Shown here: piece after piece, positions 41,202 through 64,000 of the stretch
Layout: every line of letters begins with the position of its first letter
How positions within the stretch are numbered: the stretch's first letter is position 1
From: an uncultured Acidobacteriota bacterium
GTDB taxonomy: Bacteria; Acidobacteriota; Thermoanaerobaculia; UBA5066
Assembly (NCBI GenBank): GCA_963779415.1
Contig: CAVZYA010000001.1
Location: 608,001 to 672,000 of the forward strand
Length of the DNA: 64,000 nucleotides
Direction of reading: 5' to 3'
The notes under the pieces: generated by a model
The model's input: only the letters and a program-made list of their open reading frames with translations
What the model was told of the DNA's origin: nothing
The model's database searches: none
Position numbers and translations under genes: made by a program

Positions 41202-42815
41202 ATGGAAACGTCCCGCATCCCCTGGTGGCGGCGCCTGAGCGTTGCGCTCGTCGCGACGGTGGCCGCCCTCACGCTGATTTCGATCAGCGTTTTCGCCGTC
41301 CTGACGATCGGGGCACAGCGATCGCAGATGATGGACGAGACCCAGCGAGGCGCCGCCCTCTTCTCCGACACCATCCGGACGAGCACGCACGACCAGATGC
41401 TCTCGGACCGGAAGGACGATGCCTACCGCGTCATGGAAGCGATCTCCCGGCGCGAAGGGGTCGAGAAGGTCCGGATCTTCAACAAGGAAGGGAGGATCAT
41501 GTTCTCGACGGCCCCGGGCGAGATCGGGACCTTCGTCGACAAGAAGGCCGAGTCGTGCTACGCGTGCCACGCGGCCGGGCAGCCGCTCGTCCGGCTGTCG
41601 GTCCCCTCGCGGGCCCGGGTGTTCCGCGCTCCGGATGGCCATCGGGTTCTCGGGATGGTGACGCCCATCTACAACGAGACCGCCTGCTCTTCCGCCGCCT
41701 GCCACGTCCATCCGGTGAGCCAGAGCGTTCTCGGCGTCGTCGACGTCTCCATCTCGCTCCAGGAGGTGGATGCCCGGGTGGCCGAACAAACCCAGAGAAC
41801 AATCTGGATCTCGGTCGTCTGCGTTCTCGCGATCGCCGCCACGCTCGGTGTCGCGATCAGCCACTTCGTCCTCCGGCCGGTCCGGGAGATGGTCACGGCC
41901 ACCGAGCGGATCGGGCGGGAGGACCTGCTCGTCACGGTCCCCGTTCACGAACGGAACGAGCTGGGAAGCCTCGCGACGTCGTTCAACGAAATGGCCGAGT
42001 CGCTCGCGAAGGCGCGCGCCGAGCGCCTCGAGCTCCTGAACAGCCTCGAGCATCAGGTGGAAGAGCGGACCGAGGCTTTGAGGGCGGCTCAGGCGCAGCT
42101 CCTCCAGACGGAAAAGCTCGCTTCGCTCGGGCAGCTCTCGGCCTCCATCGCGCACGAGATCAACAACCCGCTCGCGGGAATCCTCACCTTTTCCAAGCTG
42201 CTGATCCGGAACCTCGAGGAGGGAGCGGACCTTTCCGCTCTGAAGGGAAGCTTCCTCCGGAACCTCAAGCTGATCGAGCGCGAGACCGACCGCTGCCGGT
42301 CGATCGTCCGGAACCTCCTCGACTTCGCCCGCCAGCGGCCGCTCGTTCTCGCCGATGTCGACGTCTCCCAGCCTCTCGAGGAAGCGCTTTCGCTTCTGAA
42401 CCACAAGATCGAGCTGCAGGGAATCGCACTCGAGAAGCGGCTCGCCAGCCCGGCCTTCGTCCGCGCCGATTTCGGCCAGCTGCGGCAGGCCTTCGTGAAC
42501 GTCCTCCTCAACGCCTGCGACGCGATGCCGGGCGGCGGACGTCTGGCCGTCGCCGCCGACCTCTCCGCCGACGGAAAGTGGGTGGATGTCGCCTTTTCGG
42601 ACACCGGGCCGGGAATCTCTCCGGGAAACCTGACCCGGATCTTCGACCCTTTCTTCACGACGAAGGAGATGGGGACCGGTCTCGGGCTTTCGGTCGTCTA
42701 CGGCATCGTCCAGAAGCACGGCGGGGAGATGAGGGCCCAGAGCCGCCCCGGCGCGGGGACGACCATGATCATCCGTCTCCCCCTCGCCCCCTCCTCGCCC
42801 GAGGCGGCGGCGTGA
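41202..42815 (+). CDS. Sensor histidine kinase with periplasmic heme-c-type motifs, HAMP, HisKA, HATPase
   Basis: Two TMs flank CYACH and CSSAACH; AHEINNPL, NVLLNACDA, DTGPGI, FDPFFTTK, GTGLGL. Confidence 0.92.
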   Translation: METSRIPWWRRLSVALVATVAALTLISISVFAVLTIGAQRSQMMDETQRGAALFSDTIRTSTHDQMLSDRKDDAYRVMEAISRREGVEKVRIFNKEGRIMFSTAPGEIGTFVDKKAESCYACHAAGQPLVRLSVPSRARVFRAPDGHRVLGMVTPIYNETACSSAACHVHPVSQSVLGVVDVSISLQEVDARVAEQTQRTIWISVVCVLAIAATLGVAISHFVLRPVREMVTATERIGREDLLVTVPVHERNELGSLATSFNEMAESLAKARAERLELLNSLEHQVEERTEALRAAQAQLLQTEKLASLGQLSASIAHEINNPLAGILTFSKLLIRNLEEGADLSALKGSFLRNLKLIERETDRCRSIVRNLLDFARQRPLVLADVDVSQPLEEALSLLNHKIELQGIALEKRLASPAFVRADFGQLRQAFVNVLLNACDAMPGGGRLAVAADLSADGKWVDVAFSDTGPGISPGNLTRIFDPFFTTKEMGTGLGLSVVYGIVQKHGGEMRAQSRPGAGTTMIIRLPLAPSSPEAAA

Positions 42816-42836
42816 CGGAGAGAACCGGGGGGAGGA

Positions 42837-43385
42837 ATGAAGGGAGCGATCGCGGTCTGGTGGATCGGAGCCGGTCCCTTCGAGGCAAGTCTTCTCGGCG
42901 GCGTGAGACAGGCTCTCGAGACCTCCTACGGGCTTCCCGCGCGCCTTCACCACGGCTCCGATCGGCCTGCCGATTCGTTCGAGCCGAGACGGGGACAGCA
43001 CGCCTCCGGGAAGATCCTGGCCTGGCTCGCCTCGCGCGCTCCCGACGAGAGCCGACGGATCCTCGGCGTGACGGACGCCGACCTCTTCATCCCGATCCTC
43101 ACCTTCGTCTTCGGCGAGGCCGAGCTCCGGGGCCGCGCGGCCGTGGTCTCCACCGCGCGCCTCTCGGACCGGGAAGGCGTCCCGGCCGAACCGTCGCTCC
43201 TCGCCGCCCGCCTCGCCAAGGAGTGCGTCCACGAGGTGGGGCATACGTTCGGTCTGATCCATTGCCGCGTTCCGGGCTGCGCCATGGCCCGGTCCGCGAG
43301 CCTGCGCGACGTCGACGCGAAGACGGAAGATCTCTGCCACGAGTGCCGCGACCACGTCCGCGACGTTCTCCGAAAGGAGCGCTGA
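42837..43385 (+). CDS. Archaemetzincin (M54) zinc metalloprotease
   Basis: DLFIPILTFVFGEA, VVSTARL, KECVHEVGHTFGLIHC, CAM..S, D.K...LC..C. Confidence 0.9.
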   Translation: MKGAIAVWWIGAGPFEASLLGGVRQALETSYGLPARLHHGSDRPADSFEPRRGQHASGKILAWLASRAPDESRRILGVTDADLFIPILTFVFGEAELRGRAAVVSTARLSDREGVPAEPSLLAARLAKECVHEVGHTFGLIHCRVPGCAMARSASLRDVDAKTEDLCHECRDHVRDVLRKER

Positions 43386-43389
43386 AGCC

Positions 43390-44775
43390 ATGAGCCGGAA
43401 GAACACCCGAATCCTGATCGTCGATGACGAGGAGGTCGTCCGCGAGTCGTTGGGCGGCTGGCTGGAGAAGGACGGGTACAGCCTCGGGAGCGCACCGGAC
43501 GGCGCCTCCGCCCTGAAGGCCGTCGAGGAGAAGGAGTGGTCAATCCTCGTCGTCGACCTGAAGATGCCCGGCATCGACGGGCTCCAGGTCCTGCAGGCGG
43601 TCAAGGAGAAGCACCCCGAGATCGCCGTCGTCATCATGACGGCCTACGCCACCGTCGACACCGCCGTGAGAGCGATGAAGCTCGGCGCCTATGACTACAT
43701 CGTCAAGCCGTTCGACCCCGAGGAGCTCTCCCTGATGATCCAGAAGATCGTCGGGCAGCAGGCCCTCGTGAGGGAGAACCTGATTCTCCGCAAGGCCCTC
43801 AAGCGCGAATACCGGTTCCACGACTTCGTCAGCAAGAGCCCTATCATGCGCGACGTCCTCGAGCTGGCCAAGACCGCGGCCCGGAGCCCTTCCACGATCC
43901 TGATCCTCGGCGACAGCGGGACGGGAAAGGAGATTCTCGCCCGGTCGATCCATGCCGAGAGTCCGCGGGTGGCGAAGCCCTTCGTCGCCGTCTCCTGCGC
44001 GGCCCTGACCGAGACGCTCCTCGAGTCCGAGCTCTTCGGCTACGAGAAAGGGGCCTTCACGGGAGCCTCCGGGCGTCACGAGGGAAAGTTCGAGGCCGCC
44101 AGCGGCGGCACGCTCTTCCTCGACGAGATCGGGGACATCAGCCCGAAGCTGCAGCTCGACCTGCTGCGCGTTCTGGAGGAGCGGCGGGTGACGCGCGTCG
44201 GCGGCACCGAGAGCATTCCGGTCGACGTCCGGATCATCGCGGCCACGAACCGCGACCTCGCGAAGGCCGTCGAGGAGGGAAGGTTCCGGCAGGACCTCTA
44301 TTACCGGCTGAACGTCATCGCCATCCGGCTCCCCCGCCTCACCGAGCGGCGAGAGGACATCCCTCTGCTCGTCGACCACTTCCTCGAGCACCTCGGCGTC
44401 GAGATGAAAAGAGAGGCCGAGGGGATCTCGGCCGAGGCGATGGCGCTCCTGATGTCGCACGACTGGCCGGGCAACGTCCGAGAGCTGCGGAACGTCCTCG
44501 AGCGTGGCCTCGTCGTAGCGAAAACGCCGGTCATCCAGGCTTCCGACCTCGGACTCGTCCCGGGTGCGACGGGGGGCGGAAGCGACCGTCCCGCCTCGCT
44601 CTCCGAGGTGGAGAAACGCCATATCGCCTCGGTCCTCCACCACGCGGGCGGCAACGTCAGCCAGGCCGCGCGCATCCTCGACATCGACCGGGTCACCCTC
44701 TACAACAAGATCCGGAAGTACCACCTGCGCGACGCCGAGGAGCACGATGCGGCGCCGGAGTCCGAGAAAGCCTGA
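43390..44775 (+). CDS. NtrC/AtoC-family sigma54-dependent response regulator
   Basis: REC (DLKMP), GDSGTGKE, ESELFGYEKGAFTGA, FLDEIG, WPGNVREL, Fis HTH. Confidence 0.96.
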   Translation: MSRKNTRILIVDDEEVVRESLGGWLEKDGYSLGSAPDGASALKAVEEKEWSILVVDLKMPGIDGLQVLQAVKEKHPEIAVVIMTAYATVDTAVRAMKLGAYDYIVKPFDPEELSLMIQKIVGQQALVRENLILRKALKREYRFHDFVSKSPIMRDVLELAKTAARSPSTILILGDSGTGKEILARSIHAESPRVAKPFVAVSCAALTETLLESELFGYEKGAFTGASGRHEGKFEAASGGTLFLDEIGDISPKLQLDLLRVLEERRVTRVGGTESIPVDVRIIAATNRDLAKAVEEGRFRQDLYYRLNVIAIRLPRLTERREDIPLLVDHFLEHLGVEMKREAEGISAEAMALLMSHDWPGNVRELRNVLERGLVVAKTPVIQASDLGLVPGATGGGSDRPASLSEVEKRHIASVLHHAGGNVSQAARILDIDRVTLYNKIRKYHLRDAEEHDAAPESEKA

Positions 44776-44863
44776 ACAGGCCTTTCTGTTTCCATTCCGT
44801 GACAGCGATGAGCGGAACCGGTAACGGTGACGCCGCCGCGACGCATGCGCCGGCTCGCGAGGG

Positions 44864-44880
44864 AAGGTACCAGGTTTGCA
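44864..44880 (+). promoter_or_regulatory. sigma54 (-24/-12) promoter
   Basis: AAGGTACCAGGTTTGCA (GG-N10-GC with TTGCA), about 24 nt before ATG 44904 and directly downstream of the NtrC gene. Confidence 0.65.
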
Positions 44881-44903
44881 TCTCTCGTGACAGGGAGCTT
44901 CGC

Positions 44904-45737
44904 ATGCCGATCGTCACGATTTCCCGCGGAACCATGAGCGGTGGGAAGGCCCTGGCGGAGTGCCTCGCCACGACGCTGGGCTGCTCCTGCATCGCCCGCG
45001 AGGTTCTGGTCGAGGGCGCCGCCAAGCTGGGGGTCTCGGAGGAGTTCCTCCGCGAAAGACTGGAGCGAGCGCCCGGTCTCTGGGAGCGCCTGACAGCCGA
45101 GCGGAAGACGTACGCTCTGGCGACGCAGGCGGCTCTGGCCGAGCAGGTCGTCCGCGGCGAGGCCGTCTATCACGGCCTGGCCGGACACCTCCTCCTTCGC
45201 GAGATCCCCGAGGTGCTGCGCGTCCGGCTCATCGCGCCGGCCGAGATCCGGGTGAAGGCCCTCATGGAGCAGCGGCGCATGACCCGGGAAGACGCCGAGA
45301 GGTTCATCGCCCAGGTGGACAGTCACCGGGTGAGGTGGACGCGGCTCATGTACAACGCCGACATCGAAGACCCGCGTCTGTACGACATCGTTCTCAACCT
45401 CGAGAAAACCACGATCCAGTCGGGATGCGACACGGTCATCACCCTCGCCCGGCGGCCGGAATTCACCATCGACGACGCCGCCCGCGCGCGTTTGAGCGAC
45501 TTCGTCCTCACCTGCCGCGTGCGTCTCGCCCTGGCCGTTCAGCCGGCCACGCGGGGCCTCGAGCTGGACGTGACGGTCCGCGGCGGCACGGTCACCCTTT
45601 CGGGCAAGGTCCCGAAGCCCGACATGCTGACCCATGCGAGCGATCGCTGGATGAAGGAGCTTCGCGAGGCGGTGGAGGGGGTGACGGGAGTCAAGCGGGT
45701 CGTCCTCGACGTGAGCGTGGTAAGCGCTTACCACTGA
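44904..45737 (+). CDS. Cytidylate kinase-like family protein with C-terminal BON-like domain
   Basis: GGGAG RBS; MPIVTISRGTMSGG P-loop, LRVRLIAP...R, DPRLYDIVLN; tail LDVTVRGGTVTLSGKV...VEGVTGVKRV. Confidence 0.82.
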   Translation: MPIVTISRGTMSGGKALAECLATTLGCSCIAREVLVEGAAKLGVSEEFLRERLERAPGLWERLTAERKTYALATQAALAEQVVRGEAVYHGLAGHLLLREIPEVLRVRLIAPAEIRVKALMEQRRMTREDAERFIAQVDSHRVRWTRLMYNADIEDPRLYDIVLNLEKTTIQSGCDTVITLARRPEFTIDDAARARLSDFVLTCRVRLALAVQPATRGLELDVTVRGGTVTLSGKVPKPDMLTHASDRWMKELREAVEGVTGVKRVVLDVSVVSAYH

Positions 45738-45747
45738 GAAATCCGAA

Positions 45748-45768
45748 GGCGCCTCCCGACGAGGCGCC
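45748..45768. repeat. Intergenic 8-bp stem-loop
   Basis: GGCGCCTC-ccgac-GAGGCGCC just before the AGGAGG RBS; no U-tract. Confidence 0.45.
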
Positions 45769-45782
45769 GTCAGGAGGCCCGA

Positions 45783-45971
45783 GTGGAATTCCTGAACTGG
45801 CTCCAGAATCTGGGAAAGGACGCGAGTCCGGCGCCCGGGTTTCAGGCGCGTCCCGAATACGTCCTCGTCTCCGTCCTCCTTCCGGTTCTGGTGGGTCTTT
45901 TCGTCGGCTTCACGCTGAGGCTCATCGAGCGGCTCCTCGGGGTGGAGCTGGGAAAGGGCGGGGCACACTGA
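45783..45971 (+). CDS. Small membrane protein (DVU0150-like paralog)
   Basis: AGGAGG RBS, one TM, EYVLV...GLFVG...LGVELG motif shared with 48600..48930. Confidence 0.7.
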   Translation: MEFLNWLQNLGKDASPAPGFQARPEYVLVSVLLPVLVGLFVGFTLRLIERLLGVELGKGGAH

Positions 45972-45972
45972 G

Positions 45973-46908
45973 ATGTCAGCCGGAGAGTTCCTTCTCGGCG
46001 TCGACAACTTCCCGTACCTCGCCCTCTTCGGCCTCGTGATCGGAGCCCTGGGCGGCTTCTTCGGGGTAGGCGGCGGCTTCCTCATGGTCCCGATGCTGAA
46101 CGTGGTCTTCGGTGTGCCGTACAACATCGCCGTCGGCTCGGACCTCGGCCAGATGTGCGGGATGTCGACCGCCGCCACCGTGCGCCACATGCGATTTGGC
46201 AACATCGACTTCAAACTGGGCCTTCTGATGATCGTCGGAACCGCGAGCGGGGTCGAGGTCGGCGCCCAGCTCCTGGAGTTGCTCAAGCACCTCGGGAGCA
46301 TGTCGATCCTGGGGCGCGAGATCGACATGATGACCGTCATCATGAGTCTGGTCTACGCGGCGCTCCTCATCTTCCTGGGTCAGGCGATGGTGAGGGAGTC
46401 ACTCCGGACGATGAGGCGGGCCGCGGGCCAGATCCAGCTCGGCGCCGAGGCGCCTACCGCGACGGCGGCCGTGCGGCTCCGGACCGTCAAGCTCTGGCCG
46501 ATGGTGAGCCTTCCGGCGTCGGGGATCGAGTCGGTCTCGCTCTGGGTGATTCTCGGAATCGGCTTCGCCACCGGGCTCCTCTCCGGGATGCTGGGAGTCG
46601 GGGGGGGCTTCATCCGGATGCCGGCGCTCGTCTACATTCTCGGCTGCCCGACGGTCGTGGCCGTCGGGACCGACCTCTTCGAGATCATGTTCAGCTCGGC
46701 GTACGGCGTGATGACGCACTCGTTCAAGGGAAACGTCCATCTCGGACTCGTGCTGGCTCTGCTCGCCGGCACCGCCGTCGGAGCCCAGATCGGGGCGTCC
46801 TACACGAGAAGAGCCGGGGGGCCCTGGGTCCGATTCGGTTTCGGATGCCTGGCCTTCGTCGGCGTCTTCATGGTCGTCCTGAAGCTCTATCTGAAGCTCC
46901 TCCACTAG
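45973..46908 (+). CDS. TauE/SafE (TSUP) sulfite-exporter family transporter #1
   Basis: Duplicated GFFGVGGGF / GMLGVGGGF, AVGSDL / AVGTDLF, GNIDFK, GAQIG. Confidence 0.9.
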   Translation: MSAGEFLLGVDNFPYLALFGLVIGALGGFFGVGGGFLMVPMLNVVFGVPYNIAVGSDLGQMCGMSTAATVRHMRFGNIDFKLGLLMIVGTASGVEVGAQLLELLKHLGSMSILGREIDMMTVIMSLVYAALLIFLGQAMVRESLRTMRRAAGQIQLGAEAPTATAAVRLRTVKLWPMVSLPASGIESVSLWVILGIGFATGLLSGMLGVGGGFIRMPALVYILGCPTVVAVGTDLFEIMFSSAYGVMTHSFKGNVHLGLVLALLAGTAVGAQIGASYTRRAGGPWVRFGFGCLAFVGVFMVVLKLYLKLLH

Positions 46909-46912
46909 ACCT

Positions 46913-48142: not shown

Positions 48143-48179
48143 TGGGATTTCTCGTAGGCATGAGAGGCGCGGAGAGCGT

Positions 48180-48603
48180 ATGAGCGGTTCCGAACGGATC
48201 CGGGTTCTCGTCGTGGATGACGAGGAGGACTTCGCTTCCGCCATCGCCGAGCGCCTCGCACGGCGCGGCTTCGACGCGGCGGCTGCGTTCTCGGCGAGGG
48301 CGGCCCTGGCGCTTCTCGAAGAGTTGCCCTCCGACGTCGTCGTCCTCGACCTGAAGATGCCGGGGATGGACGGCCTCACCGCCCTGCGGGAGATCCGGAA
48401 GCTCCACCCCGGCGTCCAGGTCATCGTTCTCACCGGACACGGCACCGTCGCGTCCGGCATCGAAGGGATGCAGGGAGGCGCCGCCGATTTCCTGCAGAAA
48501 CCCGTCACGATCGAGGTTCTTTGCGCGGCCATCGCGGTCGCCGCCGAGCGCTCGCGCGCGGGCGGTACGTCCGGGGGGCCGGGAGAGGGAGGAAGAGAGA
48601 TGA
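48180..48603 (+). CDS. Single-domain response regulator (3' end read through, probably by an indel)
   Basis: VLVVDDE, VLDLKMPGMDG, LTGHG, FLQKP. The natural stop is probably TGA 48601-48603 overlapping ATG 48600. Confidence 0.85.
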
Positions 48604-48930
48604 ATCGAACGACGATTCGCCGGCCGATCCGCGTCGGGGCGGGACGCCTGCATTCCGGTCCTGACCGGACTCGCGATCCTTGCGCTCGGGCTCGAGGCGC
48701 GGGGTGCCCCTGCCGGGCCCGCCAGGCAGCTGGTCAACATCGCCGACACGCGCACGCTCCCGCAGGGGTTCACCCGCTGGATCGCGGACGTCTACAACAC
48801 GTCGCACTGGGAATACGGGCTTCTCGTCGTCATCGTCATGGCAGCCATGGGGCTCCTCCTCGGCACCGGATTCGACCGCGTCATCACGAAGCTGGGCATC
48901 GACCTCGGGCGGCTCGAGCATCACGAGTAG
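48600..48930 (+). CDS. DVU0150-like small membrane protein (absent from the ORF track; one frameshift near 48650)
   Basis: Read manually: ...LTGLAILALGLEARGAPAGPARQLVNIADTRTLPQGFTRWIADVYNTSHWEYGLLVVIVMAAMGLLLGTGFDRVITKLGIDLGRLEHHE, stop TAG 48928-48930. Confidence 0.75.
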
Positions 48931-48952
48931 GCCGGACCGGAAGGAACAGCAC

Positions 48953-49981: not shown

Positions 49982-49993
49982 AAGGAGAGGACG

Positions 49994-50326: not shown

Positions 50327-50365
50327 CCTGAAGTTCGAATCCCGGGATGCCCGCCGGAACTTCCC

Positions 50366-58650: not shown

Positions 58651-58681
58651 GGACTCTCTCCTGTTTCGAAGCGGCGCCGGA

Positions 58682-60922
58682 TCAGATGAAGAGCGGCGCC
58701 AGGACGAGGGTGATCGTGGAAAGGAGCTTGATCAGGACGTGAAGCGACGGGCCGGCGGTGTCCTTGAACGGGTCGCCCACGGTGTCGCCGACGACGGCTG
58801 CCCCGTGTGTGGGGTTCTTCATTTTCTTGCCGTCCGGCGCCGTCAGGTATTTCCCGCCGTGCGCACCGCTCTCGATGTACTTCTTGGCATTGTCCCAGGC
58901 GCCGCCGCTGTTGTTGAGGAAGAGCGCCATGAGAATCCCGCAGATGGTCCCGACCATGAGCAGACCGGCCACGGCCTCGGCGGAGATGAGCCTGTTTTCC
59001 GGCGTGATGAACATCTTGAAGATGAGGCCGACGCCGATCGGAGTGAGAACCACGAGGAGGCCCGGCGCGACCATCTTGCGGAGCGCTGACTTCGTGACGA
59101 TGTCGACGCAGGCGCTGTAGTCCGGCTTGAAGTCGGCGGGGAACTGGATGATGTCGTTGAGGCGCGGGAGCTTGGCGTACTGCCGGCGCACCTCCTCGAT
59201 GATCGCCTGCGCGGCCTTGCCAACCGCCCGGATGGCCATCGACGAGAAAAGGAAGACCAGGGCCGCACCGATCAGCGCGCCGACGAAGACGACCGGGTTG
59301 GCGAGGTTGACCCCATGCATTTCCTGTCCGGCGTACTGCGCCACCTCGTCCATGTAGGCCTGGAAGAGGAGGAACGCCGCGAGGGCCGCGGACCCGACCG
59401 CGTACCCCTTCGTGAGCGCCTTCGTGGTATTACCAACGGCATCGAGCCGGTCGGTCTTCTTGCGGACGTTCTCCGGCTGCTCGGACATCTCCACGATGCC
59501 GCCCGCGTTGTCCGTGATCGGGCCGAAAGTGTCCATGGCAAGGATGTAGGCCGCCGTCGCGAGCATCCCCATCGTGGCCACGGCAGTGCCGAAGAGGCCC
59601 CCGTGCATCCCGGAGGAAGCCGGGAAGGCCGACTGCCCGAGGAAATAAGACCCGAGAAGCGCGGCGCCCATGACGAGGGTCGGCATCCAGGTGCACTCGA
59701 GGCCGACGCCGACGCCGGCGATGATGTTCGTGGCCGGGCCGGTCTTGGACGCCTCGGCGATCGACTGGACGGGGCGGTACTTGTACTCCGTGTAGTACTG
59801 CGTGATGTAGACGAAGGCGACCGACGTGAGGACCCCGACGATGCCGCAGAGGAAGAAGTGCCACCAGGCGTCGGGCGCGCCCGGCGGGTTGAGGAGCCAG
59901 TATGTCGTTCCGCCGAAGGCCACCATCGCAAGCACCACCGCGTAGTAGTAGCCGCGGTTCAGCGCCTGCATCGGGTCGATCTTCTCTTCCTTGTCCATCT
60001 TGACCATCATGATTCCGATGATCGAGGCGACGATTCCGAAGGCGCGCGCGACGAGGGGGAACATCATCACGCCGATGACGCCGGCGGAGAATCCGAAGTT
60101 GGCCTTCTCCGCGGCGGCCGCCAGCGAGGCCCCGAGGATCATGGCGCCGATGTTCTCGGCGGCCGTCGACTCGAAGAGGTCGGCGCCGCGCCCCGCGCAG
60201 TCGCCCACGTTGTCGCCCACGAGATCGGCGATGACGGCCGGGTTGCGAGGATCATCCTCGGGGATGCCGGCCTCCACCTTGCCGACGAGGTCCGCGCCGA
60301 CGTCGGCCGCTTTCGTGTAGATACCGCCGCCGAGTTGGGCGAAGAGTGCGACGAAGGAGGCTCCGAATCCGTAACCGACGATCAGGAGAGGGATCTTCGT
60401 CGGCTCGACGTTGCCGAACGCGTCCACGAGGGCGTAAAGCCCGCTCACCCCGAGAAGGCTCATGGCCACGACGAGGAGACCGGACACCGCGCCTCCCCGA
60501 AGGGCGATGCGGAGCGCGTCGTTGAGGCTGGTGAGCGCCGCCGTCGCCGTCCGGATGTTGCTCCGGATCGAGACCCACATCCCCACGTACCCGGCGAAGA
60601 CGGAGCAGAGGGCGCCGAAGACGAAGGAGAGGGTGATCCAGAAGGCGAGCGCGTACGAACTCCCCACGGGATCGAACGGGCGGTGTTCCCGGACGACGCC
60701 GTACCCGAGGAAAAGAACGACCGCGAACGCCAGGGCGAGGCCGAGGATCGTCCGGTTCTGACGCCGGAGGAACGCCTCGGCCCCCTCCTTGATCGCGTTC
60801 GAGATCTTCTGCATCGCCTCGCTTCCCGTCGAGAAGCGCAGGACCCAGCGGGCCAGATAGGCGGCGAAGAGCAGGCCGAACACCGAGAATCCGATTACCA
60901 GAAGGATGAGCTGTGCGGTCAT
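58682..60922 (-). CDS. hppA: Membrane-bound pyrophosphatase (K+-independent type)
   Basis: GGGIYTKAADVGADLVGKVE, EDDPRN, DNVGD, DTFGPITDNAGG, GNTTKA, GDTVGDPFKD; GAGGAG RBS. Confidence 0.95.
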   Translation of the reverse strand: MTAQLILLVIGFSVFGLLFAAYLARWVLRFSTGSEAMQKISNAIKEGAEAFLRRQNRTILGLALAFAVVLFLGYGVVREHRPFDPVGSSYALAFWITLSFVFGALCSVFAGYVGMWVSIRSNIRTATAALTSLNDALRIALRGGAVSGLLVVAMSLLGVSGLYALVDAFGNVEPTKIPLLIVGYGFGASFVALFAQLGGGIYTKAADVGADLVGKVEAGIPEDDPRNPAVIADLVGDNVGDCAGRGADLFESTAAENIGAMILGASLAAAAEKANFGFSAGVIGVMMFPLVARAFGIVASIIGIMMVKMDKEEKIDPMQALNRGYYYAVVLAMVAFGGTTYWLLNPPGAPDAWWHFFLCGIVGVLTSVAFVYITQYYTEYKYRPVQSIAEASKTGPATNIIAGVGVGLECTWMPTLVMGAALLGSYFLGQSAFPASSGMHGGLFGTAVATMGMLATAAYILAMDTFGPITDNAGGIVEMSEQPENVRKKTDRLDAVGNTTKALTKGYAVGSAALAAFLLFQAYMDEVAQYAGQEMHGVNLANPVVFVGALIGAALVFLFSSMAIRAVGKAAQAIIEEVRRQYAKLPRLNDIIQFPADFKPDYSACVDIVTKSALRKMVAPGLLVVLTPIGVGLIFKMFITPENRLISAEAVAGLLMVGTICGILMALFLNNSGGAWDNAKKYIESGAHGGKYLTAPDGKKMKNPTHGAAVVGDTVGDPFKDTAGPSLHVLIKLLSTITLVLAPLFI

Positions 60923-61016: not shown

Positions 61017-61811
61017 TTAGTGCCCTCCCTGCCCGAACAGAGTCCCCGCGATCCAGCCCGAGACGACCGCGATGAGGACGGTGAAGGCGCCATAGAAGAC
61101 GGGGCGCCGGTCGGCCAGTCTCGAGAGCCAGTCCACGATCCCCGTCTTTCGAAGGAAGAGTTCGTTCGTCTCCATGCCGAGCAGCCGCTCCTCGCCGACG
61201 AAGTACGTCGTGGCGCCGTACAGGCCGTCCGGCGCGGACGCGGGAAGCCGGAAGGAATGGTAGAAGGCGCCTTCGGCGTTCAGCCGGATGGCGTTGGTCC
61301 GGACGCCGTAGAGGCCCCGCTGCGCCTGAAGATCCCAGTAGCCCTTCAGCACGCTCTCCTCCTCCCCGGGCCGAAGGGGCGAGGAAAGGCTCTCGAGACG
61401 CGCCCGAGCGGCCACGTCATCGGGGCCCGTCAGGAGGCCCAGCGGCGCGAGAAGCCGATTGCTGAGTTCGAGGGCGTCGGTATGAGGACAGGGAGCGAAG
61501 CCGTTGCAGACGGGACAACTGACGTTGACGAGGTAGAGCCCCGGCACTCCCGAGAGGCGGTACTGGCGAACGCCGAGCCACAAGAGCGCGACCCGCCCTT
61601 TCTCCATCAGCCGGATCTGCCCGGCCGGAGGACCTTCCATCACCACGATGACGTGGCGGGTCCCGGCCGGAGCCCTCCCGTAAAGGAAGATGTCGCGGCC
61701 CGAGAAGGCGTACGACACGTCGATTCGCCGGACCTCGATCCGGGCGGCGGCGGCCTGCGGGGCCCCCGCGGCCGGTGTCACCGCGAGAGCGACGACGAGG
61801 GCTACGAGCAC
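61017..61811 (-). CDS. TIGR02186-like membrane-anchored protein (usual TSUP neighbour)
   Basis: Signal peptide, IDVSYAFSGRDIFLYG, KGRVALLWL, FRLPASAPDGLY, KTGI..WL...A..RPVFYG, C-terminal TM. Confidence 0.78.
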   Translation of the reverse strand: MLVALVVALAVTPAAGAPQAAAARIEVRRIDVSYAFSGRDIFLYGRAPAGTRHVIVVMEGPPAGQIRLMEKGRVALLWLGVRQYRLSGVPGLYLVNVSCPVCNGFAPCPHTDALELSNRLLAPLGLLTGPDDVAARARLESLSSPLRPGEEESVLKGYWDLQAQRGLYGVRTNAIRLNAEGAFYHSFRLPASAPDGLYGATTYFVGEERLLGMETNELFLRKTGIVDWLSRLADRRPVFYGAFTVLIAVVSGWIAGTLFGQGGH

Positions 61812-61812
61812 G

Positions 61813-63525
61813 TCAGTGTCCTCCCCCCGCCTTGGCGAAATCGATGAGCTGGTCCGGAGGCATGAGGAGCTGGAAGAGGAGCATCGCCATCACGACGAGG
61901 ACGATCAGGGCGAGGAAGACGCGGATCTGCTCCCCCCGGACGCGGCGGCTGGCGGCCGCCCCGAACTGGGCGCCGATGACGCACCCGGCGAAGAGCACCA
62001 CGGCCAGCATCACGTCCACTGTCCGGTTGGTGATGGCCTGCTGGAGGGCGACGTTGGCCGACGTGAGGACGATCTGGAACAGGTCGGTCCCGACCGCCAC
62101 CCGGGTGGGGATGCCGATGATGTAGATCATCGTCGGGAGCATGATGAATCCCCCCCCGACGCCCAGGAACGCGGCGAGCACCCCGACGAGGAAGCCGGCG
62201 GCTATCGGAAGAAGGACGGAGGTCCGGAGCCCCGATTTCGGAAAGTCGAGCTGAAGCGGGAGTCGGGCGAAGAAGACCGTCAAGGCGCCGCGCGTCGGCT
62301 CGCCGGCGGGCGACTTCCTCCGCCAGGCGCGCAACCCTTCGCGGAGCATGGTGAGGCCGATGAATCCGAGGACGAGGACATAGGTCAGCTTCAGGAAGAA
62401 GTCGAAATTGCCTTGGTTGCGGAGGACCTTCACGAGCTGCACGCCGACGAACCCGCCCGTCCATCCTCCGCCAATGATGAACAGCCCCATCTTGAAGTCG
62501 ACGTTGCCGAGGCGGGAGTGGGAGAGGGCTCCCGACGTGGCCCCGGCGGTGATCTGGGCGGCGTTTGTGGCGGCGGCCACGGCGGCCGGAATGCCGATGA
62601 AGATCAGGAGCGGCGTCATCAGGAAGCCGCCTCCCACGCCGAACAGACCCGAGAGGAAGCCGACGAGACCCCCCATCCCGGCGATCAGAAGAGGGTTCAC
62701 GGACGCCCCGGCCACAGGGAAATAGACCCGGAGCCGCCGGAGGAGGCTCCGCGTCTCGGGACGCCCCTCGTGGTGTCGCACCCTCTCGAACATGGCGGGA
62801 GTGACCTGCGGGTGGCAGACGCGGCAGGTCCGCTCGAGCCGGGCCGGGTTCAGCCTCGAACGCGGGTCGCTCGCCGGGAGGATCCCGTGCGATCCGTGAC
62901 ATGACGGACAGGTGGCCACGTCGAGGATGCCGTGGGAGAGGGCGACTCCGTGGACCGTTCCCTCGAACCCCTCCACACAGGCCGACGGAAGCTCCGTGTG
63001 CCGGATCACCGCCGGGTCGTCGTGGCAGCGGGCACACGTCGTCGAGACGCGGGCCGTGGAGGTGGGAGCGGCGTCGTCGTGTACCGGAAGGACCGTGTGG
63101 CTGCCATGGCACGAGACGCACGTGGGCGAGAGCCCGTCACCGGCCTTCGCGCCTCGGGCGTGAGAACTCTCCGAATACGCATCCAGTTCGGCCTTGTGGC
63201 AGCGGCCGCAGGTCGCGGCGACATTTCTCGCGTTGACCGGCGAGGAGGGCTCGTCCGGCGAAAGCCGCGTCCCCGCGCCATGACACTCCCCGCACGCGAG
63301 GGGAGCGTGAACCCCTGCGAGCGGCACCTGCCCGCCGCGAGCAGGAAGATCGGCGAACATTCGACCCGAAGGGAGGAGAAAAAGAGCGACGACACCTACC
63401 AGAGAGACCGCCTGTCGCCGGAAGGACGCCGGCCGGCCCGTGTCGTGATCGCCGGTGCACGGGAGGCGCGCACCTCCCCTACTCCCCCAGCAGCTCCGCA
63501 CGTGACCCAGGAAAGCAAGTACCAC
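61813..63525 (-). CDS. Hexaheme cytochrome c fused to TauE/SafE (TSUP) transporter #3
   Basis: CGECH, CGRCH, CVSCH, CARCH, CPSCH, CRVCH, then in frame VYFPVAG, GLFGVGGGF, GNVDFK, VAVGTDLF. The true start is probably near 63460, downstream of the promoter. Confidence 0.85.
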   Translation of the reverse strand: MVLAFLGHVRSCWGSRGGARLPCTGDHDTGRPASFRRQAVSLVGVVALFLLPSGRMFADLPARGGQVPLAGVHAPLACGECHGAGTRLSPDEPSSPVNARNVAATCGRCHKAELDAYSESSHARGAKAGDGLSPTCVSCHGSHTVLPVHDDAAPTSTARVSTTCARCHDDPAVIRHTELPSACVEGFEGTVHGVALSHGILDVATCPSCHGSHGILPASDPRSRLNPARLERTCRVCHPQVTPAMFERVRHHEGRPETRSLLRRLRVYFPVAGASVNPLLIAGMGGLVGFLSGLFGVGGGFLMTPLLIFIGIPAAVAAATNAAQITAGATSGALSHSRLGNVDFKMGLFIIGGGWTGGFVGVQLVKVLRNQGNFDFFLKLTYVLVLGFIGLTMLREGLRAWRRKSPAGEPTRGALTVFFARLPLQLDFPKSGLRTSVLLPIAAGFLVGVLAAFLGVGGGFIMLPTMIYIIGIPTRVAVGTDLFQIVLTSANVALQQAITNRTVDVMLAVVLFAGCVIGAQFGAAASRRVRGEQIRVFLALIVLVVMAMLLFQLLMPPDQLIDFAKAGGGH

Positions 63526-63530
63526 GCCCG
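63514..63530 (-). promoter_or_regulatory. sigma54 (-24/-12) promoter
   Basis: Minus strand CGGGCGTGGTACTTGCT (GG-N10-GC with TTGCT), followed by a GGGGAGG RBS. Confidence 0.6.
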
Positions 63531-63699
63531 GATCGCTAATGTCCGCAGATACTTGAACTTCCGTCCGAATCGGTGGCCGGAGCCGTTCCGGCTGTTACCG
63601 TCTCTTCCCAGCGGAGGGGGGTGAGCCTTACCCTGGCGGGACGTCCCCCTGCACGCGCCCTCAGCTCCCCTCCGGCCAAGACAACGTGTCGCGCAAGCG

Positions 63700-63999
63700 T
63701 CAGTGTGCGATCGGCGCCAGCACCGGCATGCCCAGGGCTGGCCAGATGACGTAGACGAAGAGCGCCAGGATCAGCATGACGAGCACGCTCGGGATGAGCC
63801 CGTAGAGGAAGAACTCCCCGGACGTGAATTGCTTGCTCTCGTAGGCGATGGCGTTGGGCGCTGCGCCGATGAGCAGGTTGAACGGCATGCCGGCGGTCAC
63901 GAGGCACGAGAAGAGGATCACCGCCGGGGCGACCCCGAGGTAGCGCGCGATGACGAGCGCGACCGGCAGCGCGATGGCGATGGCCGCGACGTTCATGAT
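63700..63999 (-). CDS. SLC13/DASS family permease, C-terminal part (partial)
   Basis: MNVAAIAIALP, AGMPFNLLIGAAPNAIAY, EFFLYG. Confidence 0.85.
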   Translation of the reverse strand: MMNVAAIAIALPVALVIARYLGVAPAVILFSCLVTAGMPFNLLIGAAPNAIAYESKQFTSGEFFLYGLIPSVLVMLILALFVYVIWPALGMPVLAPIAH

Positions 64000-64000
64000 G

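What the first reader, a model, noticed from the sequence alone, without database searches (positions are those of the whole stretch)
41202..64000. Candidate undescribed system: sigma54-controlled oxyanion/sulfur transport island wired to dikinase-like proteins and heme proteins
Seen: two convergent gene blocks meet at about 51420. Together they carry three anion-transporter families (3x TSUP, a CHR pair, SLC13/DASS), three PEP-synthase-like paralogs with a shared unknown C-terminal domain, an NMP-kinase-like protein, two histidine kinases, two stand-alone receivers, an NtrC activator, a multiheme cytochrome and an H+-PPase. Established: TSUP, CHR and DASS members move sulfite, sulfate, chromate or dicarboxylates. 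From memory, the sub-block receiver / small membrane protein / TSUP / lipoprotein / PEPS-related gene resembles the functionally unresolved Desulfovibrio DVU0145-0152 region; this needs verification. Inference: an integrated system that senses redox or anion status and couples transport to ATP-dependent phosphotransfer.
Basis: partly seen in the sequence, partly recalled or inferred. Interest (0 to 1): 0.88.

Follow-up and report, generated by a model that had tools for sequence, protein, structure and literature searches.

The report
Sulfate-respiration transporter module with novel dikinases
A repeated set of genes (anion carriers, nucleotide-binding proteins and ATP-using dikinase-like enzymes with an undescribed end domain) lies near the sulfate-respiration genes and was found almost only in genomes that have them, which suggests an unstudied device that controls or powers sulfur-oxyanion transport.

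Summary
Only part of it is one conserved system. The conserved core is a dikinase-like protein ("DK"): an N-terminal helical domain, a PPDK_N ATP-grasp, a phospho-His swivel, and an unannotated ~290-aa C-terminal domain (CTD) where the PEP/pyruvate barrel would be. DK is linked to TSUP carriers, Cytidylate_kin2-BON proteins (CK2), Alph_Pro_TM and histidine kinase/receiver pairs. In 80 loci from MAGs labelled as at least eight phyla, TSUP lies within 3 kb of DK in 62 and CK2 within 5 kb in 57. 18 loci also hold sat/apr/qmo-like genes. The CTD tracks APS reductase: own phylum 23/31 AprB-positive versus 0/270 AprB-negative genomes; a second phylum 72/86 versus 7/115. The host carries dsrAB, aprBA and sat 34-63 kb right of the window, with sat followed by receiver-CK2-TSUP. 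ChrA, H+-PPase and the M54 peptidase are not conserved partners. No strong sigma54 promoter lies in the interval. The Desulfovibrio resemblance holds by proxy. Best reading: an accessory transport/regulation module of dissimilatory sulfur metabolism. Its mechanism is inferred, not shown.

The parts
41202..42815 (+). HAMP-HisKA-HATPase sensor histidine kinase (HK1)
   Evidence: Pfam. The left neighbour is an unrelated beta-lactamase-family gene on the minus strand, 39364-41124, so the island starts here.
42837..43385 (+). Peptidase_M54 (archaemetzincin-like) protein; not a conserved partner
   Evidence: Pfam. No hit with this probe in any of 80 related loci.
43390..44775 (+). NtrC-type sigma54 activator (receiver + sigma54 AAA+ + Fis HTH)
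   Evidence: Pfam. rpoN is present in the genome.
44799..45737 (+). Cytidylate_kin2 + BON protein (CK2a); the likely true start is the ATG at 44904
   Evidence: Pfam; sequence. A 9/11 sigma54-like site lies at 44865. That site is not conserved in relatives.
45783..45971 (+). Small single-TM protein (62 aa) directly upstream of TSUP1
   Evidence: ORF and sequence. No Pfam or NCBIfam hit.
45973..46908 (+). TSUP1 (TauE family carrier)
   Evidence: Pfam. Orthologues are 77-90% identical in 27 of the related loci and always sit between CK2 and the dikinase-like gene.
46913..48142 (+). X409: dikinase-like paralogue reduced to the N-terminal helical domain plus CTD; no ATP-grasp, no swivel His
   Evidence: AF2 model: pLDDT 84, pTM 0.82. 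The 409-aa form is conserved at 76-93% identity in P0002-P0007.
48180..48600 (+). Stand-alone receiver RR1; its ORF reads on to 49202 in this assembly
   Evidence: Pfam. The orthologue in L041 stops after about 140 aa. Related contigs lack one base at 48595.
48607..48930 (+). Small TM protein 2, upstream of TSUP2; it has no ATG/GTG/TTG start in this assembly
   Evidence: Homologues sit upstream of the TSUP in L041 and in L136-L138 (37-39% identity). Related contigs lack one base at 48649.
48950..49981 (+). TSUP2 (TauE family carrier), the DVU0149-like type
   Evidence: Pfam. 51-52% identical to the TSUP that carries the DVU0149 primer site in L136-L138.
49994..50326 (+). Small lipoprotein (signal peptide ending in a Cys)
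   Evidence: Sequence. Follows TSUP2-type genes in 3 of 80 loci and in several of the 20 same-phylum loci.
50366..51411 (+). ChrA pair (two half-size Chromate_transp genes); an occasional partner only
   Evidence: Pfam. Present in 4 of 80 loci and in 3 of the 20 same-phylum loci (L034-L036).
51429..53936 (-). DK835: full-length dikinase-like protein (N-helical + PPDK_N + PEP-utilizers swivel with His + CTD)
53947..54321 (-). Stand-alone receiver RR2
   Evidence: Pfam.
54352..56010 (-). dCache-HisKA-HATPase sensor histidine kinase (HK2)
   Evidence: Pfam.
56003..58588 (-). DK861: full-length dikinase-like protein
   Evidence: NCBIfam PEP-synthase models match only residues 126-568, at 266 bits against a cut-off of 598.
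58682..60922 (-). Membrane H+-pyrophosphatase; fits the sulfate-activation context but is not a conserved neighbour
   Evidence: Pfam. Present in 1 of 80 loci.
61017..61811 (-). Alph_Pro_TM (TIGR02186-like) membrane protein
   Evidence: Pfam; NCBIfam. Present in 38 of 80 loci, typically in the order TSUP-AlphTM-DK.
61813..63525 (-). c-type cytochrome domain with six CXXCH motifs, fused to TSUP3
   Evidence: Pfam. Six CXXCH motifs at residues 78-238.
63700..64000 (-). 3' end of an SLC13/DASS gene that continues to window coordinate ~65541
   Evidence: L001:700-2541, Na_sulph_symp 3.2e-44.

Best explanation
The interval is the left part of a ~200-kb chromosomal region (C1 ~537-735 kb) devoted to dissimilatory sulfur-oxyanion metabolism. 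The genome is probably from the Acidobacteriota; that placement rests only on the names of the closest homologues.

The conserved unit is a repeated module with these parts:
- A secondary anion carrier, usually TSUP, sometimes SLC13, CitMHS/ArsB-type or SulP.
- A small TM protein or lipoprotein, or an Alph_Pro_TM protein.
- A Cytidylate_kin2-BON(-CBS) nucleotide-binding protein (CK2).
- One or two dikinase-like proteins (DK), in which the PEP/pyruvate barrel of PEP synthase is replaced by a ~290-aa domain (CTD) that has no annotation.
- Often a dCache or HAMP histidine kinase with single-domain receivers.

Proposed working:
1. The carriers move sulfate, or sulfite/thiosulfate, for the Sat-AprBA-DsrAB pathway.
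2. DK autophosphorylates its swivel His from ATP, giving AMP plus Pi or PPi.
3. Through its N-helical/CTD module DK docks on, or senses for, the adjacent carrier.
4. Together with CK2 it sets carrier activity according to the ATP/AMP/PPi or APS state.
5. Periplasmic sensor kinases report the external anion through the stand-alone receivers.
6. X409, which has no catalytic domains, would be a non-catalytic docking or sensing paralogue.

Shown here: domain make-up, retention of the swivel His, conserved synteny, the phyletic link to AprB, and adjacency to sat/apr/qmo.
Inferred: the cargo, the direction of transport, the phosphoryl acceptor, and the regulatory rather than metabolic role.
For: Domains and paralogy:
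- The three full-length DKs keep the G-H swivel motif; X409 lacks it.
- X409 residues 15-120 are collinear with the DK N-terminal helical domain, at 24-26% identity.
- The own genome holds five CTD copies, all on C1 between 539 and 680 kb.

Synteny:
- In 20 same-phylum loci DK sits with TSUP, lipoprotein, ChrA, AlphTM, CK2, kinase/receiver genes, SLC13 or SulP.
- In 80 loci from named MAGs: TSUP in 64, CK2 in 60, HK in 42, AlphTM in 38.
- TSUP lies within 3 kb of DK in 62 loci, CK2 within 5 kb in 57, and both in 51. Seven of the 80 loci are shorter than 8 kb.

Link to the sulfate pathway:
- Clustering the neighbour ORFs gave a Sat cluster in 13 loci, AprB in 8, AprA-like in 8 and Qmo/HdrA-like in 10. 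One representative of each cluster was scanned in Pfam.
- 18 of 80 loci hold at least one of these next to the cassette.

Phyletic profile:
- Own phylum, 301 genomes: CTD in 23, AprB in 31, both 23, CTD only 0.
- Phylum of G301, 201 genomes: both 72, CTD only 7, AprB only 14, neither 108.
- 4 of 4 CTD-bearing genomes reached from loci labelled delta proteobacterium, Desulfobacterium, Latescibacterota and Planctomycetota have AprB.

Own genome: dsrN, dsrBA, dsrMK, aprBA, a Qmo/HdrA-like fusion and sat, then on the same strand receiver, CK2, TSUP, receiver, an unknown ORF and a HAMP kinase.

Multiplicity: up to 12 CTD matches in one genome. This fits per-transporter accessory proteins better than one central enzyme.

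CK2 sequence: CK2b has Arg where the Walker-A Lys is expected, and carries CBS. This fits a sensor rather than a kinase.

Docking, weak: complex prediction for TSUP1 + X409 scored 0.41 (runs 0.44, 0.36, 0.41), best of 3 controls 0.00. The mark was reached by 58 of 80 solved complexes and 2 of 110 mismatched pairs. At 0.60 or under it was reached by only 7 of those 80, and by both mismatches that passed. The runs agree in at least 77% of contacts and the partner pLDDT is at least 72. The tool's verdict was 'weak support'.

Literature:
- TSUP/CysZ, DASS and SulP are the candidate sulfate carriers of sulfate reducers (PMC5840216, passages).
- Desulfobacteraceae DASS and SulP clusters carry Cache kinases and CBS proteins, and the authors proposed that these regulate sulfate uptake (PMC11887813, section 14 read whole).
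- DVU0145-0150 is induced in sulfate-free syntrophic growth and repressed on the shift to sulfidogenic growth (PMC4265775, passages).
Against: - No biochemical or expression data bear on any step, and no RNA run was available.
- No member of this TSUP clade has a known cargo. TSUP members are annotated mostly as sulfite or sulfonate exporters.
- DsrD was not found with PF08679 in a 92%-complete genome, and that control rang nowhere. A DsrL-like gene sits next to dsrB. The pathway could therefore run oxidatively, and the carriers could be exporters.
- The phyletic association is not perfect. AprB occurs without the CTD in 8 and 14 genomes, and the CTD without AprB in 7. Related genomes are not independent and MAGs are incomplete, so the Fisher P values overstate the case.
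- Neighbours were detected with the window's own proteins as tblastn probes. Kinase and receiver hits are generic.
- The complex prediction is only weak support, and by the tool's own calibration such a pass is more often wrong than right unless the prior was good.
- The CTD has conserved Cys/His/Asp/Glu residues (C609, H613, D614, H620, H745, D750, E755 in DK861). These could equally mark a catalytic or metal site of a metabolic enzyme.
Confidence: 0.5

Rival explanations
1. The DKs are metabolic enzymes, not regulators. Option one: they run like PPDK in reverse, rebuilding ATP from the AMP made by APS reductase and the PPi made by ATP sulfurylase, with a phosphoryl donor bound by the CTD. 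Option two: they phosphorylate a small molecule brought in by the adjacent carrier. In either case CK2 would act as an adenylate-kinase-like partner and the H+-PPase would handle PPi.
For: The ATP-grasp and the catalytic His are intact in the three full-length copies. The CTD occupies the place of the substrate domain and has invariant Cys/His/Asp/Glu/Arg residues. The family tracks AprB, the source of AMP, and often abuts sat, the source of PPi. An H+-PPase lies inside the array in this window. Other members of the superfamily use alternative substrate domains; NCBIfam gave sub-threshold hits to rifamycin phosphotransferase and PigC/RedH.
Against: There are up to 12 paralogues per genome, each beside its own carrier and kinase/receiver set, which is unusual for a central enzyme. 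A conserved paralogue without any catalytic domain exists (X409). The H+-PPase is a neighbour in only 1 of 80 loci. CK2b lacks the Walker-A Lys. No known substrate-binding fold was recognised in the CTD.
Confidence: 0.25
2. The DKs are non-canonical cytoplasmic sensor kinases. The CTD binds an intracellular signal, the ATP-grasp loads the swivel His, and the phosphate passes to the adjacent stand-alone receivers (His to Asp). These feed, with the classical kinases, into a signalling network. The carriers would be only its regulated targets, at the level of transcription.
For: Arrays such as HK-RR-DK-DK-HK-RR and DK-RR-DK-HK-RR recur. The receivers have no output domain. A kinase, receiver or activator lies within 3 kb of DK in 40 of 80 loci. 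NtrC-type activators and sigma54 promoters sit beside the homologous Desulfovibrio-like cassette and upstream of dsrA and aprB in this genome.
Against: Half of the loci (40 of 80) show no kinase, receiver or activator within 3 kb of DK, whereas TSUP is there in 62. Phosphotransfer from a PEP-utiliser swivel His to a receiver Asp has, to my recollection, no precedent. The resemblance of the N-terminal bundle to the CheA P1 domain (Z 8.0 and 7.8) is within the noise for helical bundles.
Confidence: 0.15
3. There is no system. The genes are independent functions that have collected in a sulfur-metabolism island by hitch-hiking and horizontal transfer.
For: ChrA, H+-PPase, M54 peptidase and SulP are rarely or never neighbours elsewhere. 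The three other genomes of the host's family lack both the CTD and AprB. TSUP1 orthologues are 77-90% identical across MAGs labelled as different phyla. Both observations suggest transfer as a block.
Against: The order and strand of CK2-TSUP-DK and TSUP-AlphTM-DK are kept in loci whose CTDs are only 33-45% identical and which come from differently labelled phyla. The gaps are very short: 5 nt between TSUP1 and X409.
Confidence: 0.07

Closest known systems
PEP synthase / pyruvate phosphate dikinase (PEP-utilising dikinases)
   Same: PPDK_N ATP-grasp (E 1e-65 and 8e-57) and the PEP-utilizers swivel domain with the conserved His, in the same order.
   Different: There is no PEP/pyruvate-binding C-terminal barrel. 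In its place is a ~290-aa CTD with no Pfam or NCBIfam model, and there is an extra ~130-aa N-terminal helical domain. The PEP-synthase equivalog models score 266 bits against a cut-off of 598 and cover only residues 126-568. The public names 'pyruvate, water dikinase' are therefore probably wrong.
Desulfovibrio vulgaris DVU0145-DVU0152 region (sigma54 activator DVU0151 with the DVU0150-0146 'transmembrane transport' operon; induced in syntrophic growth)
   Same: Three Desulfovibrio-like genomes (G450, G383, G320) share the parts. Their small TM protein is 37-39% identical to the window's, their TSUP is 51-52% identical to TSUP2, and they have a sigma54 AAA+ activator and a full-length DK 36-37% identical to DK835. 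The papers give DVU0145 as a response regulator, DVU0148 as a lipoprotein, and DVU0151 as regulating DVU0150-0146 (PMC4641369 and PMC4265775, passages).
   Different: In those loci the operon has an 11/11 or 10/11 sigma54 promoter; the window has none of that quality. No homologue of the window's lipoprotein, and no stand-alone receiver, was detected there with my probes. I did not have the D. vulgaris Hildenborough sequence itself.
DASS- and SulP-type sulfate-transporter gene clusters of Desulfobacteraceae, with Cache sensor kinases and CBS-domain proteins (PMC11887813, section 14)
   Same: SLC13/DASS and SulP carriers sit beside dCache histidine kinases and a CBS-bearing protein (CK2-BON-CBS) in a genome with the sulfate-reduction genes. 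The idea that sulfate uptake is tuned by the external anion and by internal energy or APS state is also shared.
   Different: That paper describes WalR-type (DNA-binding) regulators and, in the text I read, does not mention dikinase-like proteins, Cytidylate_kin2, TSUP or Alph_Pro_TM. Homology between the two clusters was not tested.
TSUP/CysZ candidates for sulfate uptake in sulfate reducers (PMC5840216)
   Same: TauE-family carriers; some lie near sat/apr in sulfate reducers, and the paper proposes them as possible primary sulfate transporters.
   Different: That analysis found most transporter genes far from the pathway genes, and its text has no occurrence of the terms 'phosphoenolpyruvate', 'cytidylate' or 'response regulator'. 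Whether TSUP1 or TSUP2 belong to its 'clade B' was not testable here.
Dikinases with alternative acceptor domains (rifamycin phosphotransferase; prodigiosin ligases PigC/RedH; phenylphosphate synthase, the last recalled from memory)
   Same: ATP-grasp plus swivel-His chemistry applied to an acceptor other than pyruvate. Sub-threshold NCBIfam hits to RPH and PigC/RedH cover the ATP-grasp part.
   Different: The scores are far below the cut-offs (178 against 999; 143 against 1300). The matches cover only the ATP-grasp part of DK861 (residues 126-434) and none reaches the CTD. From recollection, RPH carries its His domain at the C-terminus, which would be a different domain order.

Membership tests
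PEP synthase / PPDK | N-terminal ATP-grasp nucleotide-binding domain (PF01326) | tested here: met
   DK861 1e-65, DK835 8.3e-57, the copy beyond the window 5.1e-77, the fifth copy 1.6e-68. Absent from X409.
PEP synthase / PPDK | Swivel phospho-histidine domain (PF00391) with the catalytic His | tested here: met
   PF00391 hits. The motif G-H-[LM]-A in DK861 and DK835, and S-H-L-A in the third copy, is aligned. X409 has R-S at that place.
PEP synthase / PPDK | C-terminal PEP/pyruvate-binding TIM-barrel domain, and a score above the family cut-off | tested here: not met
   No Pfam family on the last ~290 residues. NCBIfam PEP-synthase equivalogs score 266 and 259 bits against cut-offs of 598 and 740 and end at residue 568.
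Rifamycin phosphotransferase (RPH) | Equivalog score above the cut-off | tested here: not met
   NF041857 scores 178 bits against a cut-off of 999, and the match covers only the ATP-grasp part of DK861, residues 126-433. That RPH has its His domain at the C-terminus is recalled, not tested.
TSUP (TauE/SafE) carriers | PF01925 over the whole membrane domain | tested here: met
   1.3e-40, 3.5e-43 and 4.5e-45 for the three copies.
Sigma54-dependent operon | Activator with a sigma54-interaction AAA+ domain, and rpoN in the genome | tested here: met
   PF00158 8.5e-71. PF04552 8.7e-65 at C1:443.7 kb.
Sigma54-dependent operon | A -24/-12 promoter (TGGCAC-N5-TTGCW) upstream of the operons in the interval | tested here: inconclusive
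   0 exact matches in the window. TGGC-N8-TGC gave 5 matches against 4.06 expected. No site of 10/11 or better in window coordinates 32000-82000. The best in-interval candidate is a 9/11 site at 44865, 24 nt before the likely CK2a ATG, and it is not conserved in relatives.
Accessory genes of the dissimilatory APS/sulfite pathway | Phyletic co-occurrence with APS reductase | tested here: met
   23 of 23 and 72 of 79 CTD-bearing genomes have AprB. 0 of 270 and 7 of 115 AprB-less genomes have the CTD. 4 of 4 further genomes have AprB. Related genomes are not independent.
Accessory genes of the dissimilatory APS/sulfite pathway | Physical linkage to sat/aprBA/qmo/dsr | tested here: met
   18 of 80 loci. 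Own genome: sat-RR-CK2-TSUP on one strand, with dsr/apr 34-63 kb right of the window.
Accessory genes of the dissimilatory APS/sulfite pathway | Co-expression with, or requirement for, sulfate/sulfite respiration | not testable with these tools
   No RNA holder was listed. Only indirect literature on DVU0145-0150.
DVU0145-0152-like cluster | Small TM protein, TSUP, sigma54 activator and DK in one neighbourhood | tested here: met
   L136, L137, L138. The TSUPs carry the DVU0149 primer site with 1-2 mismatches.
DVU0145-0152-like cluster | Homologous lipoproteins and a receiver downstream of the TSUP | tested here: inconclusive
   No hit with the window's lipoprotein or receivers in L136/L137 at E<=1e-4. 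Short, fast-evolving proteins may be missed by this probe.

The most novel reading that the evidence does not exclude
The DK-CK2-TSUP(-Alph_Pro_TM) cassette is the missing post-translational control, or an ATP-driven energiser, of sulfate uptake in sulfate-respiring prokaryotes. In this reading a phospho-His dikinase with a new sensor/docking domain sits on a secondary carrier and gates or drives it according to the AMP, PPi or APS produced by Sat and Apr. This would be a PTS-like logic for an inorganic anion. The 'syntrophy-specific' DVU0145-0150 cluster of Desulfovibrio would then be a sulfate-starvation uptake system.
Probability: 0.22. Interest if true: 0.9.

Novelty: new variant of a known kind. 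Interest (0 to 1): 0.76.

Why it matters
How sulfate-respiring microbes take up sulfate, and how they stop uptake and activation from draining ATP, is unresolved. The carriers are only candidates (PMC5840216). Regulation has only recently been proposed, and only from gene clusters (PMC11887813).

This work defines a protein family of about 800-1000 clusters at 50% identity. It is publicly named 'pyruvate, water dikinase', but it lacks the pyruvate domain and carries an unannotated one. In two phyla it was found almost only in genomes with APS reductase, usually directly beside TSUP carriers and often beside sat/apr/qmo.

That gives testable candidates for three open problems:
- the function of TSUP carriers in sulfur respiration;
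- the function of the Cytidylate_kin2 and Alph_Pro_TM families;
- the meaning of the long-unexplained Desulfovibrio DVU0145-0150 cluster.

It also offers a possible extra genomic marker for dissimilatory APS-pathway organisms in metagenomes.

Tried and rejected
**Fold of the CTD.**
- Foldseek against the PDB found nothing at E<=1e-3, either for the whole X409 model or for its core, residues 181-409.
- VIA-align wide on the whole model matched only generic four-helix bundles on residues 19-183. The best was Z 10.3, below the noise level the tool gives for helical models. CheA P1 scored Z 8.0 and 7.8.
- VIA-align wide on the core gave a best Z of 6.4 (coproporphyrinogen oxidase), with several bilin reductases at Z 4.2-5.8. 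These are below the tool's usual noise of 7-8 and are a lead only.
- The ESM Atlas returned HECT-domain clusters at 0.82, which is the level of shuffled controls.

**Sigma54.** The strict and loose pattern searches in the window were negative or at chance.

**Expression.** No RNA holder was listed. The four runs I laid are DNA contigs of related organisms with small shares of the stretch. I use them only for the two indels near 48595 and 48649.

**DsrD.** Not found with PF08679, but the control rang nowhere, so this says nothing.

**Literature.**
- Full-text searches gave no paper that links these families to each other or to sulfate respiration. Searches tried: TSUP + PEP synthase + response regulator + Acidobacteria; PF13189/Cytidylate_kin2; signature genes + PEP synthase + aprAB; DVU0152/0149/0147/0146/0153.
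- 'Find' for dikinase, TauE, cytidylate, transporter or pyrophosphatase terms gave nothing relevant in PMC6018796, PMC10591310, PMC10504309 and PMC10564751.
Figs S21-S22 of PMC11887813, and the supplementary tables of the others, may show such genes.

**Rejected ORF.** 63536-63907 (minus strand): no family hit and an Arg-rich composition.

**Not tested.** Whether the TSUPs belong to 'clade B' of PMC5840216, and whether D. vulgaris Hildenborough itself carries the DK, could not be tested because no named genome was on hand.

Full report
**What is in the interval**

The window is 68% G+C. I picked reading frames by third-position G+C and tested them against Pfam.

The plus-strand block runs from 41202 to 51411 with gaps of at most about 50 nt. 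In order it holds:
- a HAMP histidine kinase;
- an M54 peptidase;
- an NtrC-type activator;
- a Cytidylate_kin2+BON protein (CK2a);
- a 62-aa single-TM ORF;
- TSUP1;
- a 409-aa protein with no Pfam hit (X409);
- a stand-alone receiver (RR1);
- a second small TM ORF;
- TSUP2;
- a lipoprotein;
- a ChrA pair.

The minus-strand block ends at 51429. Read from its promoter-distal end upward it holds:
- a dikinase-like protein of 835 aa (DK835);
- a receiver (RR2);
- a dCache histidine kinase;
- a dikinase-like protein of 861 aa (DK861);
- an H+-PPase;
- Alph_Pro_TM;
- a TSUP whose N-terminal 260 residues carry six CXXCH motifs.

The 3' end of an SLC13 gene lies at 63700-64000. The left neighbour is an unrelated beta-lactamase-family gene.

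The minus-strand array continues beyond the window. It adds the rest of the SLC13 gene, a CitMHS/ArsB-type carrier, a receiver, a dCache-PAS kinase, a third full-length dikinase-like gene (834 aa) and CK2-BON-CBS. A divergent 1195-aa SulP with STAS repeats follows. The same kinds of genes therefore recur several times.

**The dikinase-like proteins (DK)**

- DK835 and DK861 are 34% identical over their whole length. X409 matches their last ~290-350 residues at 37-38% identity.
- In the alignment the three full-length proteins keep the swivel His; X409 does not.
- X409 residues 15-120 are collinear with the ~130-aa N-terminal helical domain of the DKs. X409 is therefore a DK paralogue that has lost the ATP-grasp and the swivel.
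- This short form is conserved: P0002-P0007 are 76-93% identical over full length.
- The C-terminal domain (CTD) has no Pfam or NCBIfam model. The PEP-synthase equivalogs match only residues 126-568, at less than half their cut-offs. These are not PEP synthases, although public sources name them 'pyruvate, water dikinase'.
- AF2 models are confident: X409 has pLDDT 84 and pTM 0.82; the core, residues 181-409, has pLDDT 86.
- No PDB fold was recognised convincingly.
- Against 1.84 billion representative proteins the CTD found 1061 hits at E<=1e-3 and 819 at E<=1e-10. Most are 830-900 aa with the CTD at the C-terminus. A subset is about 1050-1085 aa, and some are about 400 aa.

**Conserved neighbourhood**

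The own genome has five CTD copies, all on C1 between 539 and 680 kb. I used 26 proteins of this region as tblastn probes.
- The 20 same-phylum loci showed recurring arrays: HK-RR-DK-DK-HK-RR divergent from TSUP-lipoprotein (sometimes with a ChrA pair); CK2-TSUP-AlphTM-DK; and DK-DK-SulP-CK2 or SLC13-CK2-DK.
- A scan of one genome per species returned 209 confirmed stretches, of which the best 80 loci were kept. All are MAGs. Their labels include Acidobacteriota, delta proteobacteria/Thermodesulfobacteriota, Syntrophorhabdales, Planctomycetota, Latescibacterota, Poribacteria, Abyssobacteria, Polyangiaceae and others.
- Families present, in loci out of 80: TSUP 64, CK2 60, HK 42, AlphTM 38, NtrC-like or receiver 34, stand-alone receiver 25, SLC13 10, ChrA 4, lipoprotein 3, CitMHS 3, PPase 1, SulP 1, M54 0.
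- TSUP lies within 3 kb of a DK hit in 62 loci, CK2 within 5 kb in 57, and both in 51. Seven loci are shorter than 8 kb.
- For scale, the own genome has 7 TauE and 6-7 Cytidylate_kin2 loci in 4.36 Mb. By my arithmetic a random 20-kb stretch would hold one about 3% of the time.

**The link to dissimilatory sulfur metabolism**

- I clustered the remaining ORFs of the 80 loci and scanned one representative per cluster. This gave ATP sulfurylase (13 loci), AprB (8), an AprA-like flavoprotein (8), Qmo/HdrA-like proteins (10), a tetrapyrrole methylase (10) and a DUF202 protein (9).
- 18 of 80 loci carry at least one of sat, aprA, aprB or qmo beside the cassette. An example order is qmo-aprA-aprB-sat-CK2 | DK, TSUP-AlphTM-TSUP.
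- The host genome has dsrA/dsrB at C1 710-712.6 kb, aprB at 716.2 kb and sat at 724.2-725.5 kb. dsrN, dsrMK, aprA and a Qmo/HdrA-like fusion lie around them. Directly after sat, on the same strand, come a receiver, a 501-aa CK2, a TSUP, a receiver, an unknown ORF and a HAMP kinase.
- Phyletic profile, host's phylum, 301 sampled genomes: the CTD was found in 23 and AprB in 31. All 23 CTD genomes have AprB, and none of the 270 AprB-less genomes has the CTD. The positives fall in seven families; the three other genomes of the host's family have neither.
- Phyletic profile, phylum of G301 (the genome of locus L127), 201 genomes: both 72, CTD only 7, AprB only 14, neither 108.
- Four further CTD-bearing genomes, reached from loci labelled delta proteobacterium, Desulfobacterium, Latescibacterota and Planctomycetota, all have AprB.
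- Caveats: related genomes are not independent and MAGs are incomplete. The figures show a strong association, not a law.

**Sigma54**

- The activator and rpoN are present.
- The interval has no good -24/-12 promoter. The best is a 9/11 site 24 nt before the probable CK2a start, and it is not conserved in relatives.
- Genome-wide there are 32 sites at 10/11 or better. They include one just upstream of dsrA, one just upstream of aprB, and one in front of the CK2 gene that pairs with DUF202.
- That last site is conserved about 28 nt upstream of the orthologous CK2 in 9 of 95 CK2 upstream regions, all in the L052-L061 group. The background was 10 of 5000 random windows.

**The Desulfovibrio lead**

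- The papers say that DVU0151, a sigma54 activator, controls DVU0150-0146 ('transmembrane transport') (PMC4641369, passages).
- They also say that DVU0145-0150 encode a response regulator, lipoproteins and membrane proteins, and that this cluster is induced in syntrophic, sulfate-free growth and repressed on return to sulfidogenic growth (PMC4265775, passages).
- The published DVU0149 forward primer encodes K-F-G-N-V-D-Y, close to G-K-F-G-N-V-D-L in TSUP2.
- In all three, the matched TSUP is 51-52% identical to TSUP2. It is preceded by a homologue of the window's second small TM protein (37-39% identity) and by an 11/11, 11/11 or 10/11 sigma54 promoter. It lies next to a sigma54 AAA+ activator gene and a full-length DK that is 36-37% identical to DK835.
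- The remembered resemblance is therefore real at the level of small-TM/TSUP/activator/DK. I could not confirm the lipoproteins or the receiver, and I did not see the Hildenborough sequence itself.

**How it may work**

Secure conclusion: this is an accessory module of the APS/sulfite pathway built around anion carriers.

Proposal: the carriers supply or remove sulfur oxyanions, and DK together with CK2 acts on them post-translationally. The reasons are:
- there are many paralogues per genome, each next to its own carrier;
- a conserved catalytically empty paralogue (X409) sits 5 nt after TSUP1;
- CK2 carries BON and CBS domains and, in CK2b, has no Walker-A lysine;
- stand-alone receivers have no DNA-binding output;
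- the TSUP1-X409 complex prediction passed, but weakly.

For that prediction the score was 0.41, and the best of 3 controls was 0.00. The mark was reached by 58 of 80 solved complexes and by 2 of 110 mismatched pairs. At 0.60 or under it was reached by only 7 of those 80 and by both mismatches that passed. The runs agree in at least 77% of contacts and the partner pLDDT is at least 72.

The main rival is a metabolic dikinase that reuses the AMP and PPi made by Apr and Sat. It fits the AprB association and the local H+-PPase equally well. It fits the multiplicity and X409 less well. The direction of transport is open: DsrD was not found, by an uninformative search, and a DsrL-like gene is present.

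**Comparison with what is known, and novelty**

- The parts belong to known superfamilies.
- Two partial descriptions exist: the Desulfovibrio DVU0145-0150 cluster, and the DASS/SulP clusters of Desulfobacteraceae with Cache kinases and CBS proteins (PMC11887813, section 14 read whole).
- In the library I could search (and the 'find' look-ups), I found no description of the CTD. I also found no description of the DK family's restriction to AprB-bearing genomes, or of the CK2-TSUP-(AlphTM)-DK cassette.
- I rate it a new variant of a known kind (PEP-utiliser dikinases; transporter clusters of sulfate reducers). It has real potential to open the question of sulfate-uptake control.

Noticed in passing
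window 48560-48660: RR1 has no stop after its receiver domain, and the following small TM ORF has no ATG/GTG/TTG start. The orthologous locus L041 has both. Contigs of related organisms lack one base at 48595 (runs X1, X2) and one at 48649 (runs X1, X3). This looks like two 1-nt insertions in this assembly, either errors or real frameshifts.
   Followed up: partly
G000:C1:712715 (-) and 715869 (+), outside the window: Sigma54-type promoters matching 10/11 positions lie just upstream of dsrA and of aprB. The dissimilatory sulfite and APS reductase operons of this organism may therefore be sigma54-dependent.
   Followed up: partly
window 7424-7439 (+): A 10/11 sigma54-like site (CGGCACATGGGTTGCT) lies at the start of the frame of a Porin_O_P-like gene, 7407-8708.
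   Followed up: no
L052-L081 (TSUP1 orthologues): TSUP1 orthologues are 77-90% identical in MAGs labelled Acidobacteriota, Deltaproteobacteria, Planctomycetota, Acidithiobacillales and Haliangium, while the neighbouring CTD is only 57-86% identical. This suggests either very strong constraint, recent transfer of the cassette, or mis-binned contigs.
   Followed up: no
X409 model residues 181-409: The best, sub-threshold structural neighbours of the CTD core are tetrapyrrole-binding alpha/beta sandwiches: coproporphyrinogen oxidase at Z 6.4, and bilin reductases at Z 4.2-5.8 (8 of the 50 rows listed). A tetrapyrrole methylase gene recurs in 10 of the 80 loci. This is a weak lead only.
   Followed up: no
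G503 and other genomes of the second phylum: Some genomes have very many CTD paralogues: 12 matches in G503, and 9 each in G345 and G458. A subfamily of about 1050-1085 aa carries roughly 200 extra residues after the CTD.
   Followed up: no
L001:11426-15013 (+), right of the window: A 1195-aa SulP carrier with four STAS-domain stretches, far longer than usual SulP proteins, is divergent from the CK2-BON-CBS gene.
   Followed up: no
G000:C1:733-735 kb and loci L052-L061, L101, L117, L126: A second recurrent pair: a CK2 gene followed by a ~270-295-aa protein that ends in DUF202. In this genome and in the L052-L061 group it is preceded by a 10/11 sigma54 site.
   Followed up: partly
window 42837-43385 (+): An M54 (archaemetzincin-like) peptidase gene is wedged between the histidine kinase and its NtrC-type regulator. 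This probe found no counterpart in the 80 related loci.
   Followed up: no
window 63536-63907 (-): This 123-codon ORF is probably not a gene: it has no family hit and an Arg/His-rich composition typical of an off-frame reading in high-GC DNA.
   Followed up: partly
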